Origin: Heteronotia binoei
Taxonomy: Eukaryota
NCBI RefSeq assembly: GCF_032191835.1
Contig: NC_083237.1
Location: 8,494,001 to 8,558,000 of the forward strand
Reading direction: 5' to 3'
DNA: 64,000 nt
Shown here piece after piece: positions 1 through 21,000 of the stretch; the first letter of the stretch is position 1; each line of letters opens with the position of its first letter. A program made the position numbers.

Positions 1-3000
1 TTCATAGTGTTGTGCATTTTGATGATGAAATACATTTAAAGCAATACTGCAGTGCCCACAGATGGGTTAATTTCTTCATTTATTATTCATTAAAATATTT
101 AGATAACACTATCAGTCAATCCATTTTGTTCGTGATTCAAGATGGATTGACTGATAGAAGGAATTTCTGGTATATTGGAGAACCAAGAGGCAGAATTTAT
201 GTCCAAGTAGTTAACTGAGCTTTATGGAGGAACATCCCAAACCAGCTCTGTCCATAACCCAACTCATTGATCAGCTATATTACCAATCAATATAGCCTCT
301 GTCTTCCCACCTTTAAACGTCTGGGGCTTATTTTTTTTAACAGAAATCACAGTTTTGAAAAGTTCAGTTTAACATTTCTATTACATTATTTCAGCTTGGA
401 TGAAAATGATAATAGAATTGTCAGGTTAGAGATGACACTCTATCAAATCTAAAGACAACCTCACTTTCCAGATCCAGATCACCCTGCCAAAAATGACTCA
501 AAGTCTCTGGTGTCTTTGGATTTCTCAGGAAAATCCTGGAACCATCAGACAGATCAAAGAGTATATATGTGTATGCTGCCACTTGTATTTTGCTGTACTT
601 TGTAATTAATAAAACATTTAAGGAAAGCAAAGCAATGTATTTTCCAAATGGTTTGGCAGAATCAAAACTTGGTTTGGTCATCAAAGTGGTTACAAGCGCA
701 AGGTCATGACTCTGAGATGCTCTTTGCATCTCATATAGGTAGAGAATGGGGGGTGGAGGAGGGGTTTAACTGCCAGAAAGGGTTCATGCATCTTGACTGT
801 AATCATAGCATTGGCCTGTTCACACTAGATAAAAACACTAGAAGATAAGAAGAGTCCTGAAGGATGCTCTATTCTGGTTTGTGTCACTTACCCTCCTGGT
901 TTGCAATCTTTGCTTCTTGGCACGGAACGCAATCGTAGCAGCAAAACTTCTCCCCTTCCTTCTTTTTCTTATGATAACCAGGCTGACAGTGTCCGTTACA
1001 TATAGATGTAGGGAGCACCTGTTCATAAACATGAAAATTATATAGATGTGCCACAGTATTTAATTCCAGGGCTTTTTTTGGGGGGGGGGGGGAGAAAAAG
1101 CCTAACGAACTTATTTGCATATTAGGCCACACCCCTGACAGCACCATTGCTCCACACAGCCTATCTATAAAAGAATGTCAGAATCTCTTCTAGTGAACCG
1201 TCAATGCAGGAACTGGACCCACCCTTCGACATGCACTAGAACCTATACCTGGTTGAAACTGTGGGGCCACACAATTTGATCTTCATGAATGATGAATTTC
1301 TCTCCTTCGGGAGCACTGGGATTCAGACTTCCCACTTTCACTTTCAAGAAGGAATTGTTTGAGAAGGTGACCAGATTCATTACATCAAATCGAGCTGCCA
1401 TTTCCTTGTTATCATTAAAATATACTGTTTCACCTGCTGAATTATTAAACGCAATTCCTTGAAGGAATGGATGGAGCTATTTTTTTTTTAAGAAAGGAAA
1501 GAATGACAGAAAAATATATTACAATAACAATGCAAAATACCAACAGCTGTGTTGGTCTGAAGTAACAGAACAATGTTTGAGTCCAGTGGCACATTTATGT
1601 CCAACAAAGTTTAATTCTGGAAATAAGCTTCCATATTCATGCACACTTCTTCAGATACATCAACAAGATTTCCACAACCATTACATATAGGTAGAGAATG
1701 GGGGGTGGAGGAGGAGTTTAACTGCCAGAAAGGGCTCATGCATCTTGACTGTAATCATAGCATTGGCTTGTTCACACTAGATAAAAACACTAGAAGATAA
1801 GAAGAGTCCTGAAGGATCAGACCAGTGAACCATCTAGTCTTGCAACTTTGCAGTTATTTTGGAGGATGAACATAGGGCATATAGGTTGAGGAGGACTTTC
1901 CCTTTACTACCTCTGTATATGCAGGCTTCTTTTAGTCACCATGAGTTTCATAAGGGTTATCTGCCCAAATGGAGATTAATACCAGACAGCCACCTGCTTT
2001 CATCACAAATGGAGACCATAGATGTCAGGAGCACTGAAGCTACCCTGCAATCCATCTTTTGAGTTCCTAGTGTACAAAATTGTCATATCTGAGACTATTT
2101 CAAGCCATAAATGCACGCAACATCCTTTCACAGTTATTCATGTTAAGAGAAGTTTGAAATGATCTCAACCAAAACATAACTTCATAACAATAATAATAGT
2201 TTATTGAGAAGTACTACCAGCCAAGGCTGAAGATCCTGCAATTCATCTCCTTTACTATCCATTCGTCTGTGCTTGGATGTGGAAGCAGACATGGAATGCA
2301 AGGCATGTGCCACAGCATAGACAGCATTATAGATGCTATAGCTCTGGCCAGTCACGCTCATTTCAAAAATTGGCCCAGGAAGGCTCTCCAGTCTCTCTTC
2401 CCCAGTACATGTCGCATCGCTATTCTCTGGGTCCTCGGATTTTGGAAATGAACAGCCAAATGCTTGTTCCCAGAAGTACTTCAGAAAGCCATCTCCTTGT
2501 TTCTTATAAGGTTTCACATTTTGAAGAAACTTCTGGAAACCTTCAAGATTCTCTGAATGAGGTGTGAAGAAAATGGCACCTTGGTAGAATTCAAAATTCC
2601 ACTTCCTCTGGAGGGATGTTAATGAAAAATCAACTTGGCCCACCAGAATCCACACTTTTCTAAGTGAGGGATTTTCTTCATCTCCAGTCCCTCCTAAGGA
2701 TATTAATGTCATCAGCCAGTTAATGGTAGTAGGTCTTCCATAAAGGATGAATGCACTTGCTTGGGTATGTTTGAAATGCAGGTGTGCTGTGAAGAACAAA
2801 TAACTGAAGTAATCCATATCCTCTTCCTGATGATGGGATACTATTCTTTTGACGAAGGCTAGACAGATCCCATTGGGGTTAAGTAATGGCTCTAGACTAT
2901 ACAAGAAGTGTTCTCCGCTGTCATCATCCACAATGAAAAGCCCAACCCAAGTCCACTGGAAATGTTTAAGTAACCTCACGATCTGTTGGACTTCATTTAG

Positions 3001-18000: not shown

Positions 18001-21000
18001 CACATTTAAAGGGACTACACACCTTTTAATGCCTTCCCTCCATTTAGAAATAATGAAGGATAGGGGCATTGAATTGAGCCCCCATGACGTGCAAGTTCAG
18101 CCCTCACCTCCAGATTCTTGGAAGGGCTATAAACATCTAACAATATCCTGATACATTAAGTCACTTGGAATTAGTGTTCCTTTGAAGTTTCAGCTTAGTT
18201 CTTTTATGCAGTTCTGTCCTTATCAAGCACTAAACCTATACCGGAAATAAAGCAATCTTTTTGTGAAACGATTATACTCCTAGGTATAGAACACACCTGT
18301 GGAACTTTGTGGAGCTCTAGAATATCTGCCATACGGAAGGAGATCTCAGGGCTAAGTCCCCCAATGACAGCTATTAGACTCTTTTTGGTGTCACATTTAT
18401 AGTTGGGGACAAATCTATGGGATCTGAAGAGCAAGTTCAAAGTAGCTTGATAGGTCATCCATTCATCATAATAACTCTCATAGATATGGAACCCAAGGGA
18501 GACATTTGGCAATATCTTGACATTCTCATTGATCTCCTTAACTGCAGATTCCAGAGCCAAGACATGTTGGTAGTTCTTTGTTGTCATGCTGTAAACAGAG
18601 TTCATTTTTCATATCTAGAAGAAATCTGAATCGTTTAAATTTTTTTACAGGTGTAGCAATTTATTTTGTTTCATGTTTAACACACTCTCTCTCTCTCCCT
18701 CTCTCTCCCTCCCTCCCTCTATCTCTTGCTGTGAATACTTCTTCTTTGTCCCAAGTAGTGTTCATGACAACTAAGAGTTAGACACAGTCACTCTAAATAG
18801 GCTCTAGATTCATCTGATATCCATTTCATAATAATACCAATGGTATATTTTCAAGGCACCTAAAGTTAATGTTTAAATACAAATGGTCTTGTAAATTTTG
18901 GTATCGCATCAGGGAAGTTTGCTTTTTAATTCTTTTGCAGTGTTTTGCAAAGGAACAAGCTACTGCTCTGCAAGAACTTGTGGAGATCACCTTGGTCTCC
19001 CAGCTCCTAGTCAGAAACAAGTGTTTGTGGGGTTCCTGCCACTGAACTGGCTCTCTGAATCATTTGACTTTCAAACAGGAGCAGGATAGGCTTACAGTGA
19101 CTATAGCATACTGCATGGATTGTAAAACCTTCTTTAATATTTGAAATAAGAACAGCAGGGATGTGGAGTGGTATACTATGGCCCAGTGTCATTAGATCTC
19201 AGAACATAAGAACATAAGAGAAGCCATGTTGGATCAGGCCAATGGCCCATCCAGTCCAACACTCTGTGTCACACAGTGGCCAAAAAAATTATACACACAC
19301 ACACACATACACACACACACATATACACACTGTGGCTAATAGCCACTGATGGACCACTGCTCCATATTTTTATCTAACCCCCTCTTGAAGCTGGCTATGC
19401 TTGTGGCCGCCACCACCTCCTGTGGCAGTGAATTCCACATGTTAATCACCCTTTGGGTGAAGAAGTACTTCCTTTTATCCATTTTAACCTGACTGCTCAG
19501 CAATTTCATTGAATGCCCACGAGTTCTTGCATTGTGAGAAAGGGAGAAAAGTACTTCTTTCTCTACCTTCTCCATCCCATGCATAATCTTGTAAACCTCT
19601 ATCATGTCACCCCGCAGTCGACGTTTCTCCAAGCTAAAGAGCCCCAAACGTTTTAACCTTTCTTCATAGGGAAAGTGTTCCAAACCTGTAATCATTCTAG
19701 TTGTCCTTTTCTGCACTTTTTCCAGTGCTATAATATCCTTTTTGAGGTGCGGTGACCAGAATTGCACACAGTATTCCAAATGACATTGCACCATCGATTT
19801 ATACAGGGGCATTATGATACTGGCTGATTTGTTTTCAATTCCCTTCCTAATAATTCCCAGCATGGCGTTGGCCTTTTTTATTGCAATCGCACACTGCCTT
19901 GACATTTTCAGTGAGTTATCTACCACGACCCCAAGATCTCTTTCTTGGTCAGTCTCTGCCAGTCTAAGCTAAGCATAGTTGGTACTTGGATGGGAGATCA
20001 CTGAGGAAGACTCTGCAGAGGCAAAGTCAAACCACCTCTGCTTCATCATTTGCCTTGAAAACCCTATGGGATGGTCATAAGTCAGTTGCAACTTGATGGC
20101 ACTTTATGCACGCAATAGAATCAACCCTAATTAACCCATGGAATTAAATTAACCCAGCTGCCCTGAGCCCAACTGGGGAGGGTGGGGTATAAATGCAAAA
20201 TAATAAATAAATAAATAAATTGAGGCTTTCTGAATCATTTCTATATAATTTCTTGCTCCCCGTAATACATTTGGCCATCATAAAATGGTTTCTCACCACC
20301 ACCACCTGGTATTTGAAAACAGAGATTTCATTAAGAGAAAAGAGATCTGTTTAGTAACTAGAAAAGACGCAACAAAAAATGACAAATAGTTGGGAGTGCA
20401 GGGAAAGAAAAACCTTAATTCCACATGTATCTCCTCTCATTTTGATTGGTCTAGCTCGCTGGAAGACACAGGAAAATGTTTTCTTACATTGTTGTGTCAA
20501 GAATGTCCTGGAAATGAAATTCGTTGAAAGAAAATTCAGAAAACCAGCTGGGAATCTGAGAGACAATTCCACCTATAATGAGGTTCCCTGACTGAGAACT
20601 CTCATGCAGGCCAGGTAGGAAACCTTTCAAGAGACACATATCTATTTTGCATGCCACAGGACGCAACCCAAGCAGCCATGTCACAACCAGCAACACCAAT
20701 GAGTGGTGAAGGTGATCTGTGGGTATAGATGTTCCTGAGCCCATCTGAAGCACCAGTCCCATTTAAACAGACTGTCTGGAATGGCAACTGAGAATGCCAG
20801 TATGCATCTTCATATGAGCCAACTGAGCTGCTGAATGACAGAAAAGATTTTGAAAACTCAGTTTGCAAATGTGGATTGTCCAAGTGACATATAAGAGATC
20901 AAGGTGACAGAGTCCTGCCTTTCATTTCTCAAAAGAATAGGAGGTGTTCACAGCAGTCATTTTGTAGAAAAATAGGTGGCAGAGCTCATCCAGGGCTTGT

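What the first reader, a model, noticed from the sequence alone, without database searches (positions are those of the whole stretch)
2218..20780. Mosaic identity between genes A and B: conversion-like tracts beside a divergent ligand-binding segment
6953-7219 and 20513-20779 differ at 1 of 267 bp (a synonymous change), and the 3' part of exon 3 is about 98% identical by eye. The adjacent intron is only about 80-85% identical, and B carries several TE insertions absent in A, so the duplication is old. The 5' part of exon 3 (FIVDDD...HTQASAF versus FVIDND...HSKASAI) is much more diverged. Inference: recurrent gene conversion homogenises the scaffold while lobe 2 of the flytrap diversifies.
[Added by the scan's program, not by the reader: the finding's places include an assembly gap (unread letters, written N; its length is only estimated) at 12349 to 12667. 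Whether the letters on both sides are continuous or in frame is not known: test that first.]
Basis: partly seen in the sequence, partly recalled or inferred. Interest (0 to 1): 0.65.

Follow-up and report, generated by a model that had tools for sequence, protein, structure and literature searches.

The report
Gene-conversion patches between two gecko V2Rs
Two neighbouring vomeronasal receptor genes of a gecko are old duplicates that carry a few short, almost identical patches, most likely copied from one gene to the other, which is an ordinary process in such gene clusters.

Summary
The window is a tandem cluster of vomeronasal type-2 receptor (V2R) genes of the gecko Heteronotia binoei, all on the minus strand. 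It is not human. Genes A and B are 83.0% identical in 2,470 aligned non-coding sites, and each carries private transposon insertions.

An edge-free scan found three tracts that 0 of 1,000 shuffles reach:
- 7239-6953: 2 differences in 287 bp.
- 4791-4528: 6 in 264 bp.
- 2599-2272: 6 in 328 bp.

A weaker fourth tract lies at 1391-1310. Four-fold degenerate sites show the same mosaic: 3 of 120 differ in the tracts, 11 of 85 elsewhere. Two tracts run into non-coding DNA. A Sawyer-type test singles out only the A-B pair. Short-tract non-allelic gene conversion is the best explanation.

- The homogenised parts are lobe 1 of the flytrap, not "the scaffold".
- The cysteine-rich exon and the 7TM exon are as diverged as the introns.
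- The lobe-2 segment is not accelerated (dN/dS 0.56).
- "Recurrent" conversion is not shown.

The gap at 12349-12667 lies in B's intron 5 and touches none of this. Read-level confirmation was not possible.

The parts
6929..7202 (-). Gene A exon 1 (ATG at 7202, GTAAGA donor from 6928). It is absent from NCBI's model P0001.
   Evidence: The frame is open and the donor phase fits exon 2. By tblastn, 15 of 27 N-termini of longer V2Rs hit 7100-6930. No annotated protein carrying this exon was found (weak evidence).
4473..4764 (-). Gene A exon 2 (first part of the flytrap)
   Evidence: P0001 residues 1-97 map here at 100%. AG/GT splice sites are present. Pfam ANF_receptor matches at 24.2 bits, just under the 25.4 cut-off for this piece alone.
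2218..3069 (-). Gene A exon 3 (284 codons, flytrap)
   Evidence: ANF_receptor matches at E=8e-20. P0001 maps here. Splice sites are shown.
1249..1476 (-). Gene A exon 4 (76 codons, open). P0001 skips it.
   Evidence: dN/dS against B is 0.24.
892..1018 (-). Gene A exon 5 (cysteine-rich NCD3G domain). Exon 6 lies beyond the window's start.
   Evidence: NCD3G matches at E=2e-13. P0001 maps here.
20489..20762 (-). Gene B exon 1 (unannotated, as in A)
18297..18588 (-). Gene B exon 2
   Evidence: P0003 residues 1-97 map here at 100%.
16108..16962 (-). Gene B exon 3 (285 codons)
14634..14861 (-). Gene B exon 4
13349..13475 (-). Gene B exon 5 (NCD3G)
11391..12292 (-). Gene B exon 6 (7TM, including the stop codon). 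It lies on the other side of the assembly gap from B exons 1-5.
   Evidence: 7tm_3 matches at E=7e-82. P0003 residues 500-799 map here at 100%. The acceptor is read.
12349..12667 (.). Assembly gap (319 N) in intron 5 of gene B, 56 bp upstream of the exon-6 acceptor
   Evidence: It was neither filled nor bridged.
6953..7239 (-). Tract T1, A copy: 287 bp with 2 differences. It covers 37 bp of 5' flank plus the first 250 bp of exon 1.
   Evidence: Score 31.6, against a null maximum of 13.7 in 1,000 shuffles. dS is 0.017 and 1 of 42 four-fold sites differs.
20513..20799 (-). Tract T1, B copy
4528..4791 (-). Tract T3, A copy: 264 bp with 6 differences. It covers 27 bp of intron 1 plus the first 237 bp of exon 2.
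   Evidence: Score 20.6, reached by 0 of 1,000 shuffles. Whole-exon-2 dS is 0.069.
18352..18615 (-). Tract T3, B copy
2272..2599 (-). Tract T2, A copy: 328 bp with 6 differences, inside exon 3. It aligns to CaSR residues about 310-440, which is mostly the return to lobe 1.
   Evidence: Score 28.5, reached by 0 of 1,000 shuffles. In the Sawyer-type test, 1 of 5,000 permutations reaches the score. dS is 0.047.
16165..16492 (-). Tract T2, B copy
1310..1391 (-). Possible tract T4 in exon 4: 82 bp with 0 differences (B copy 14695-14776)
   Evidence: Score 10.2, reached by 8 of 1,000 shuffles. Whole-exon-4 dS is 0.167, at background, so this tract is only suggestive.
2600..3069 (-). Unconverted 5' part of exon 3 in A (B copy 16493-16962): the end of lobe 1's first segment plus most of lobe 2
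   Evidence: 87.9% identical. dS 0.20, dN 0.11, dN/dS 0.56. It aligns to CaSR residues 165-309.
4930..5240 (.). Repeat insertion private to A (intron 1). The site is empty in B at 18769-18776, with a short target duplication.
19203..19966 (.). Insertion of the same repeat family private to B (intron 1). The site is empty in A at 6469-6476.
17127..17999 (-). Truncated LINE copy in B's intron 2, absent from A
   Evidence: 80.8% identical to 21400-22078, which is the 3' part of the intact LINE ORF at 21593-24535.

Best explanation
A and B are tandem, same-strand V2R paralogs about 13.5 kb apart that arose from an old duplication. Since then, short stretches of a few hundred bases have been copied from one gene into the other by non-allelic (interlocus) gene conversion. 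This happens when a break in one copy is repaired using the mis-paired neighbour as template.

The conversion left at least three separate patches of 98-99% identity in a background of 83%:
- the 5' flank plus exon 1;
- the end of intron 1 plus most of exon 2;
- the middle of exon 3.

Shown here: the patches exist, they are statistically exceptional, they affect silent sites, and they do not follow exon edges.

Inferred: the mechanism; that the patches sit on exons because purifying selection keeps exons similar enough to seed pairing, while TE-ridden introns are not; and that the events are recent, since tract divergence of about 1-2% compares with about 17% in the background.
For: - Family and layout: ANF_receptor, NCD3G and 7tm_3 domains. 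The best protein hits are H. binoei V2R models, at 100% and 86%.
- Background: non-coding identity is 83.0%, 419 differences in 2,470 sites.
- Tracts: T1 has 2 differences in 287 bp, T2 6 in 328, T3 6 in 264. Each is reached by 0 of 1,000 shuffles. The flanking 100 columns hold 9-27 differences.
- Silent sites: dS is 0.017, 0.069 and 0.047 in the tracts, against 0.20 in the 5' part of exon 3.
- Four-fold sites: 3 of 120 differ in the tracts and 11 of 85 elsewhere (p=0.005). Tracts against non-coding give p=1.5e-6. The rest of the coding sites do not differ from non-coding (p=0.38).
- A-priori whole exons: exon 1 has 2 synonymous differences in 64 sites, against the non-coding rate (p=0.0017); exon 2 has 4 in 61 (p=0.035).
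- Tract edges ignore exon edges. T1 starts 37 bp before the ATG and stops 24 bp short of the donor. T3 starts 27 bp inside intron 1, and about 42 bp counting one mismatch.
- Sawyer-type test on 422 sites polymorphic among four paralogs: for A-B, 1 of 5,000 permutations reaches the score with the scaled penalty and 27 of 5,000 with no mismatch allowed. The other five pairs are unremarkable (1,143 to 4,977 of 5,000).
- Not just slow evolution: A-B protein distance scaled to three other geckos is 0.10 in the exon-3 block and 0.24 in exon 2, against 0.56, 0.67 and 1.01 in the 5' part of exon 3, the 7TM exon and exon 5.
- No third close paralog: the next H. binoei protein is 54% identical on exon 3.
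Against: - Tests restricted to synonymous changes are weaker. A one-interval scan over 502 informative codons chose 'everything except exon 5' as its best interval (4 of 300 permutations reached it). The longest run without a silent change was reached by 15 of 300.
- Heterogeneity of silent differences across whole exons is strong only with exon 5 included (p=1.7e-6). Without exon 5 it is p=0.044.
- The edges of the exon-3 segments used for dS were chosen after looking at the alignment.
- The exon-3 block is also more conserved among distant paralogs (about 70% against about 60%) and towards other geckos. Constraint therefore explains part of the contrast.
- All four tracts sit on exons.
- The tracts are not GC-enriched, so there is no signature of biased conversion.
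- No reads and no ortholog DNA were available. A and B exons 1-5 lie on different contigs of the scaffold.
Confidence: 0.72

Rival explanations
1. Assembly artefact. The near-identity is produced or inflated by the assembler or polisher. For example, similar paralogous stretches were merged to one consensus and then used at both loci, or reads of one copy polished the other.
For: The region is a tandem array of similar genes. An assembly gap lies between A and B exons 1-5. The two gaps have odd lengths, 319 and 162 N; I read this, from general knowledge, as gap sizes estimated during scaffolding. Tract lengths of 264-328 bp are on the scale of short reads or their inserts. The passages I read in two papers give only the assembly accession, not how it was sequenced.
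Against: Merging can only sharpen an existing similarity. It cannot turn 83% into 98%. T2 and T3 each keep 6 copy-specific differences, and both copies are embedded in well-diverged, TE-marked flanks. The mosaic would therefore survive, if less sharply.
Confidence: 0.13
2. Purifying selection alone. The tracts are simply the most constrained coding parts, and no sequence exchange took place.
For: All tracts lie on exons. The exon-3 block is also the better-conserved part among distant paralogs and other geckos. Exon 4's 82-bp tract sits in an exon whose dS is at background.
Against: Four-fold sites are affected, 3 of 120 against 17% in non-coding DNA. T1 and T3 extend into non-coding DNA. The acceptor regions of exons 3, 4 and 5 are not similarly conserved (about 8 differences in 41, about 4 in 39 and 5 in 34, my own counts on the alignments). 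Exon 5, a conserved cysteine-rich domain, is no more similar than the introns.
Confidence: 0.06
3. Conversion through a spliced cDNA copy. This would explain why only exons are homogenised.
For: All four tracts centre on exons, although 58% of aligned columns are non-coding.
Against: T3 runs 27-42 bp into intron 1. T1 ends 24 bp before the end of exon 1, so there is no continuous tract across the exon 1-exon 2 junction.
Confidence: 0.04
4. Selection shapes the mosaic. Conversion happens all along the genes but is tolerated only in lobe 1, and is removed by selection where the two receptors must differ (lobe 2, the cysteine-rich domain and 7TM).
For: The homogenised parts map to lobe 1 and the diverged parts to lobe 2, CRD and 7TM.
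Against: Introns between the tracts are also unconverted, which selection on the protein does not explain. dN/dS in lobe 2 is 0.56, with no excess of replacement changes. With only three or four tracts the domain pattern could be chance.
Confidence: 0.05

Closest known systems
   Same: It involves the same receptor superfamily, tandemly expanded paralogs, and tracts detected by Sawyer's permutation logic.
   Different: That study is in fish, worked on coding sequences only, and offers conversion as an explanation for species-specific clades. Here the exchange is between one squamate gene pair, and the intron and flank sequence shows the background divergence and the tract edges.
Squamate V2R expansions (Brykczynska et al. 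2013, PMC3590772; passages read)
   Same: It concerns the same gene family and the same reptile order. The paper names homogenisation by gene conversion as a possibility.
   Different: In the passage I read, the authors call conversion the less likely explanation of their clade separation and say it could be investigated through divergence patterns among close paralogs. This pair gives a concrete case. My search (24 papers hold 'gene conversion', 'V2R' and 'vomeronasal'; 15 were listed; I read passages of 2) showed no squamate example. That is not proof that none exists.
Genome-wide interlocus gene conversion between young tandem duplicates in rodents (Ezawa et al. 2006; seen only as a reference-list entry, not read)
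   Same: From recall: short tracts between linked, same-orientation paralogs.
   Different: I made no direct comparison. The properties are recalled, not checked here.
Human calcium-sensing receptor extracellular domain (PDB 5k5s, 7dd5 and others; papers PMC4977154 and PMC8115157, passages read)
   Same: It shares the class C architecture. Exon 3 aligns to CaSR at E=5e-18, which allows the tracts to be placed on lobes 1 and 2.
   Different: It is a distant relative. The amino-acid-binding residues are not kept: the positions equivalent to Y218 and E297 are S and Q in both A and B. The exact lobe crossovers (about residues 188/189 and 323/324) are recalled, not read.

Membership tests
Vomeronasal type-2 receptor (class C GPCR) | N-terminal Venus-flytrap (ANF_receptor) domain | tested here: met
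   Exon 3 of A matches at E=8e-20 and exon 3 of B at E=2e-19. Exon 2 alone falls just below the cut-off.
Vomeronasal type-2 receptor (class C GPCR) | Cysteine-rich NCD3G linker | tested here: met
   Exon 5 of A matches at E=2e-13 and exon 5 of B at E=3e-14.
Vomeronasal type-2 receptor (class C GPCR) | 7tm_3 transmembrane domain | tested here: met
   B exon 6 matches at E=7e-82. A's exon 6 is outside the window, but its model P0001 carries PF00003 in the precomputed Pfam column.
Vomeronasal type-2 receptor (class C GPCR) | Closest named relatives are V2Rs | tested here: met
   Nearly all of the 120 listed hits that carry a descriptive name are called 'vomeronasal type-2 receptor ...-like'. P0001 itself is auto-named 'extracellular calcium-sensing receptor-like'.
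Vomeronasal type-2 receptor (class C GPCR) | Expression in vomeronasal neurons and a functional first exon | not testable with these tools
   No transcript data were available. Exon 1 is open and splice-compatible but is absent from all annotated models seen.
Interlocus gene-conversion tract | A stretch of paralog identity far above its flanks, beyond chance | tested here: met
   Three tracts are reached by 0 of 1,000 shuffles.
Interlocus gene-conversion tract | Silent sites are homogenised too | tested here: met
   Four-fold sites differ at 3 of 120 in the tracts, 11 of 85 elsewhere and 17% in non-coding DNA. The synonymous-only permutation scans are weaker (4 and 15 of 300).
Interlocus gene-conversion tract | Tract edges are independent of exon edges and reach into non-coding DNA | tested here: met
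   This holds for T1 and T3. T2 and T4 lie wholly inside exons.
Interlocus gene-conversion tract | Significant in a Sawyer/GENECONV-type test that conditions on polymorphic sites | tested here: met
   Tested on exon 3 only, with my own implementation on four paralogs. For A-B, 1 of 5,000 and 27 of 5,000 permutations reach the score; the other pairs are not significant. The GENECONV and RDP programs themselves were not run.
Interlocus gene-conversion tract | Tree conflict: paralogs group by species inside the tract and by orthology outside | not testable with these tools
   No gecko DNA other than this window is available. Only protein distances could be compared.
Interlocus gene-conversion tract | Both copies confirmed by independent reads | not testable with these tools
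   No read data were available.
Diversifying selection on the ligand-binding lobe | Excess of replacement over silent change (dN/dS > 1) | tested here: not met
   For the 5' part of exon 3, dN/dS is 0.56. pN is 40 of 379 and pS 17 of 98, p=0.08, in the direction of constraint.
Diversifying selection on the ligand-binding lobe | Acceleration between the paralogs relative to outgroups | tested here: not met
   The scaled distance is 0.56 for the lobe-2 part, against 0.67 for the 7TM exon and 1.01 for exon 5.
Diversifying selection on the ligand-binding lobe | Site-model evidence from ortholog coding sequences | not testable with these tools
   Ortholog proteins are available but not their DNA.

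The most novel reading that the evidence does not exclude
The mosaic is not a by-product but modular. Conversion keeps lobe 1 (the constitutive dimer interface and the anchoring half of the pocket) and the promoter-proximal first exon identical in the two receptors. Lobe 2, the cysteine-rich domain and the 7TM domain are kept apart. The pair would then share partners and perhaps regulation, but differ in ligand closure and signalling. If this is general in squamate V2R clusters, it would be a rule for how these very large receptor families diversify.
Probability: 0.12. Interest if true: 0.55.

Novelty: new member of a known kind. Interest (0 to 1): 0.3.

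Why it matters
Gene conversion between clustered chemoreceptor paralogs is well known, so this is an ordinary mechanism seen in one more gene pair. It has three modest practical consequences.
- Trees and duplication dates for squamate V2Rs built from exons 1-3 will make such pairs look far younger than they are. Here divergence is 1-2% in the tracts against 17% at neutral sites.
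- Site-model tests for positive selection on these genes need the converted tracts removed first.
- The cleanest tract lies on a first exon that the public gene models of five geckos leave out, so those models probably lack the signal peptide.

Tried and rejected
- A global MAFFT alignment of the two loci forced unrelated insertions together, so I dropped it for colinear local blocks.
- One search had exon 4 of B one codon out of register. That row, and the pooled 'rest' figures, are void. One search replaces them.
- One search printed two chi-square p-values wrongly. One search replaces them.
- The one-interval synonymous scan was a poor model for several separate tracts. Its modest result is reported above as evidence against.
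- In one search the exon-4 row is meaningless, because model P0001 lacks that exon. The exon-3-tail row rests on 2 to 19 sites.
- A search for annotated proteins carrying exon 1 found nothing. The word index makes this weak evidence.
- GC content of the tracts gave no signal of biased conversion.
- False tandem duplication of two haplotypes was considered and rejected. Non-coding divergence of 17% and different TE insertions are far beyond allelic variation.
- A third donor paralog was considered and rejected, because no other H. binoei protein exceeds 54% identity on exon 3.
- A spliced full-length model was not assembled, searched or folded. All searches were made exon by exon, so no structure of the whole flytrap was predicted, and lobe assignment rests on the exon-3 alignment to CaSR.
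- How the assembly was sequenced could not be learned from the passages read.
- The collections of bacterial and archaeal genomes hold no gecko DNA and were not used. 

Full report
**What the window is**

Pfam finds ANF_receptor, NCD3G and 7tm_3 domains in the open frames of the finding's range. A protein search with exon 3 alone returns Heteronotia binoei models at 100% (P0001, 733 aa) and 86% (P0003, 799 aa). Hundreds of squamate 'vomeronasal type-2 receptor' entries follow.

The window is therefore gecko DNA, not human. It holds a tandem V2R cluster, all on the minus strand. Gene A spans exons 1-5, with exon 6 lying before position 1. Gene B spans exons 1-6. Further paralogs C, D and E lie downstream.

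Exon limits were fixed by mapping the two models onto the window and reading splice sites. They are listed under parts. All searches were made exon by exon.

**The gap**

The 319 N at 12349-12667 lie in intron 5 of gene B, 56 bp upstream of the AG that precedes exon 6. Exon 5 ends one base into a codon, and exon 6 supplies the other two. The junction reads as in model P0003.

Order, strand and phase fit continuity, but contiguity itself cannot be shown. The gap also means that B's exons 1-5 sit on a different contig from B's exon 6 and from gene A. No A-B comparison below touches the gap.

**The observation**

- 6953-7219 against 20513-20779 shows 1 difference in 267 bases, a GTA/GTT valine codon.
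- Aligned non-coding DNA is 83.0% identical, with 419 differences in 2,470 sites and a Jukes-Cantor K of 0.19.
- Exon identities are 98.2, 96.6, 91.5, 93.9 and 82.5% for exons 1 to 5.
- Inside exon 3, 100-bp windows run at 83-88% from about 2990 to 2690. They rise to 96-99% between about 2590 and 2290, then fall again.
- Both copies have private insertions. A and B each carry a copy of one repeat family at different intron-1 sites, with short target duplications. B also carries a truncated LINE in intron 2.

**Objective tracts**

I scored every aligned column, coding or not, for a 2% against a 13.4% difference rate, and extracted maximal segments. The result was:

| Tract | A coordinates | Differences | Shuffles reaching the score |
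|---|---|---|---|
| T1 | 7239-6953 | 2 in 287 | 0 of 1,000 |
| T2 | 2599-2272 | 6 in 328 | 0 of 1,000 |
| T3 | 4791-4528 | 6 in 264 | 0 of 1,000 |
| T4 | 1391-1310 | 0 in 82 | 8 of 1,000 |

The next candidates are ordinary, at 444 of 1,000 and above. The 100 columns on either side of the three main tracts hold 9 to 27 differences.

T1 starts 37 bp before the ATG and stops 24 bp before the donor. T3 starts 27 bp inside intron 1. Counting one mismatch, the similar stretch reaches about 42 bp into the intron. The equivalent stretches before exons 3, 4 and 5 carry about 8 differences in 41, about 4 in 39 and 5 in 34, by my own counts on the alignments.

**Silent sites**

Nei-Gojobori estimates:

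| Segment | dS | dN |
|---|---|---|
| Exon-1 tract | 0.017 | 0 |
| Exon 2 | 0.069 | 0.027 |
| Exon-3 block | 0.047 | 0.012 |
| 5' part of exon 3 | 0.202 | 0.113 |
| Exon 4 | 0.167 | 0.040 |
| Exon 5 | 0.78 | 0.115 |

Four-fold sites differ at 1 of 42, 1 of 36 and 1 of 42 in the three tract segments, which pools to 3 of 120. In the other segments the pooled figure is 11 of 85. The two pools differ at p=0.005. Tracts against non-coding give p=1.5e-6. The remaining coding sites do not differ from non-coding DNA (p=0.38).

With whole exons as a-priori units, exon 1 (2 of 64, p=0.0017) and exon 2 (4 of 61, p=0.035) fall below the non-coding rate.

Some results are weaker:
- A one-interval scan on synonymous changes picked 'all but exon 5' as its best interval, reached by 4 of 300 permutations. 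The longest silent run was reached by 15 of 300.
- Whole-exon heterogeneity is p=1.7e-6 with exon 5 included, but only p=0.044 without it.
- The edges of the exon-3 segments used for dS were set after viewing the alignment.
- Exon 5's high dS is probably an artefact of counting sites in an exon rich in two-fold codons when 63% of changes are transitions. Only 1 of its 9 four-fold sites differs.

**Sawyer-type test**

I aligned exon 3 of A, B, C and D by codon and kept the 422 gap-free polymorphic sites. The A-B pair has a concordant fragment at 2760-2272, reached by 1 of 5,000 permutations with a scaled mismatch penalty. It also has a mismatch-free one at 2503-2393, reached by 27 of 5,000. None of the other five pairs is unusual.

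The block is also the better-conserved part among distant paralogs, at about 70% against about 60%. But A-B divergence falls about sevenfold (12.1% to 1.8%) while A-C divergence falls only from 41% to 29%.

**Slow evolution or homogenisation?**

I scaled A-B protein distance to the mean distance to Euleptes, Eublepharis and Paroedura orthologs:

| Segment | Scaled A-B distance |
|---|---|
| Exon-3 block | 0.10 |
| Exon 2 | 0.24 |
| 5' part of exon 3 | 0.56 |
| 7TM exon (46 of 300 residues differ) | 0.67 |
| Exon 5 | 1.01 |

The tracts are therefore the anomaly. The lobe-2 part behaves like the rest of the gene.

**Placing the tracts on the receptor**

Exon 3 aligns to the calcium-sensing receptor at E=5e-18. 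Exon-3 residue 27 matches CaSR residue 194, residue 51 matches Y218 and residue 145 matches E297.

Passages of two CaSR papers place W70, T145, S147, S170, R172, F444 and W458 in LB1. They place D215, Y218, R227, D234 and E297 in LB2. They also describe LB1-LB1 as the constitutive dimer interface. The exact crossovers, near residues 188/189 and 323/324, are recalled rather than read.

On that basis:
- T2 covers the last strand of LB2 and the return to LB1.
- Exons 1 and 2 encode LB1's first segment. This follows from exon order; I did not align them to CaSR.

The homogenised portion is thus lobe 1, which holds half the pocket. The cysteine-rich and 7TM 'scaffold' is not homogenised.

**Explanation**

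Short-tract non-allelic gene conversion between two old tandem paralogs fits all of this. I put it at 0.72.

- 'Recurrent' is not shown, because the four tracts do not differ in divergence (p=0.27). They are physically separate, however, with 83%-identical introns between them.
- Diversifying selection on lobe 2 is not supported (dN/dS 0.56; p=0.08 towards constraint).
- An assembly artefact could sharpen the identity but cannot create it. It remains untested because no reads were available, and the passages I read do not say how assembly GCF_032191835.1 was sequenced.
- Selection alone does not explain the silent and non-coding sites.
- A cDNA route is contradicted by T3's intronic start and T1's early stop.

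**Comparison with what is known**

Gene conversion has been reported in fish OlfC genes with GENECONV (PMC6588630, passages).

The squamate V2R survey PMC3590772 called conversion the less likely explanation for its clade separation. It said the question could be investigated through divergence among close paralogs (passage).

My search found 24 papers holding 'gene conversion', 'V2R' and 'vomeronasal'. Of these, 15 were listed and I read passages of 2. It showed no squamate case, which is not proof of absence.

This is a new member of a known kind, of modest interest.

Noticed in passing
window 7202-6929 and 20762-20489 (minus strand): The public models of A and B, and of their orthologs in Euleptes, Eublepharis and Paroedura, all start at a Met at the first codon of exon 2. 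An open first exon, with an ATG, a hydrophobic stretch that could be a signal peptide (seen by eye, not predicted) and a phase-compatible donor, lies upstream in both genes. The models are probably truncated at the N-terminus.
   Followed up: partly
window 3289-3260 and 1476-1249 (minus strand): Model P0001 of gene A inserts a 10-residue mini-exon that has no counterpart in B. It also skips exon 4, although that exon is open, has usable splice sites and shows dN/dS 0.24 against B. This looks like a quirk of the gene model rather than a defect of the gene.
   Followed up: partly
window 21593-24535 (minus strand): An uninterrupted 980-residue LINE frame with endonuclease and reverse-transcriptase domains lies between genes B and C. 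A truncated copy, 80.8% identical, sits in B's intron 2 at 17127-17786.
   Followed up: partly
window 4930-5240, 19203-19966, 44696-45025: One repeat family has inserted independently into intron 1 of A and of B, with short target duplications. It also forms 4.9 tandem 67-bp units at 44696-45025.
   Followed up: partly
window 10893-11179 and 46375-46664: A hairpin-like element has 132-nt arms that are 89% complementary, with 23 nt between them. It lies about 210 bp beyond the 3' end of B's exon 6. A second copy matches it in both orientations.
   Followed up: no
window 1018-892 and 13475-13349: Exon 5 (cysteine-rich domain) is no more similar between A and B than the introns. Its A-B protein distance equals the distance to other geckos, and its NG86 dS of 0.78 exceeds the non-coding rate. 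This is probably a site-counting artefact, but a different history for this exon is not excluded.
   Followed up: partly
window 52831-52992: A second assembly gap (162 N) lies between exon 1 (about 53435-53157) and exon 2 (from about 49581) of paralog D, that is, in its intron 1.
   Followed up: no
window 59264-59810 and 31059-31167: There is a two-copy tandem of a 277-bp unit (95% matches) and a two-copy tandem of a 54-bp unit (98% matches).
   Followed up: no
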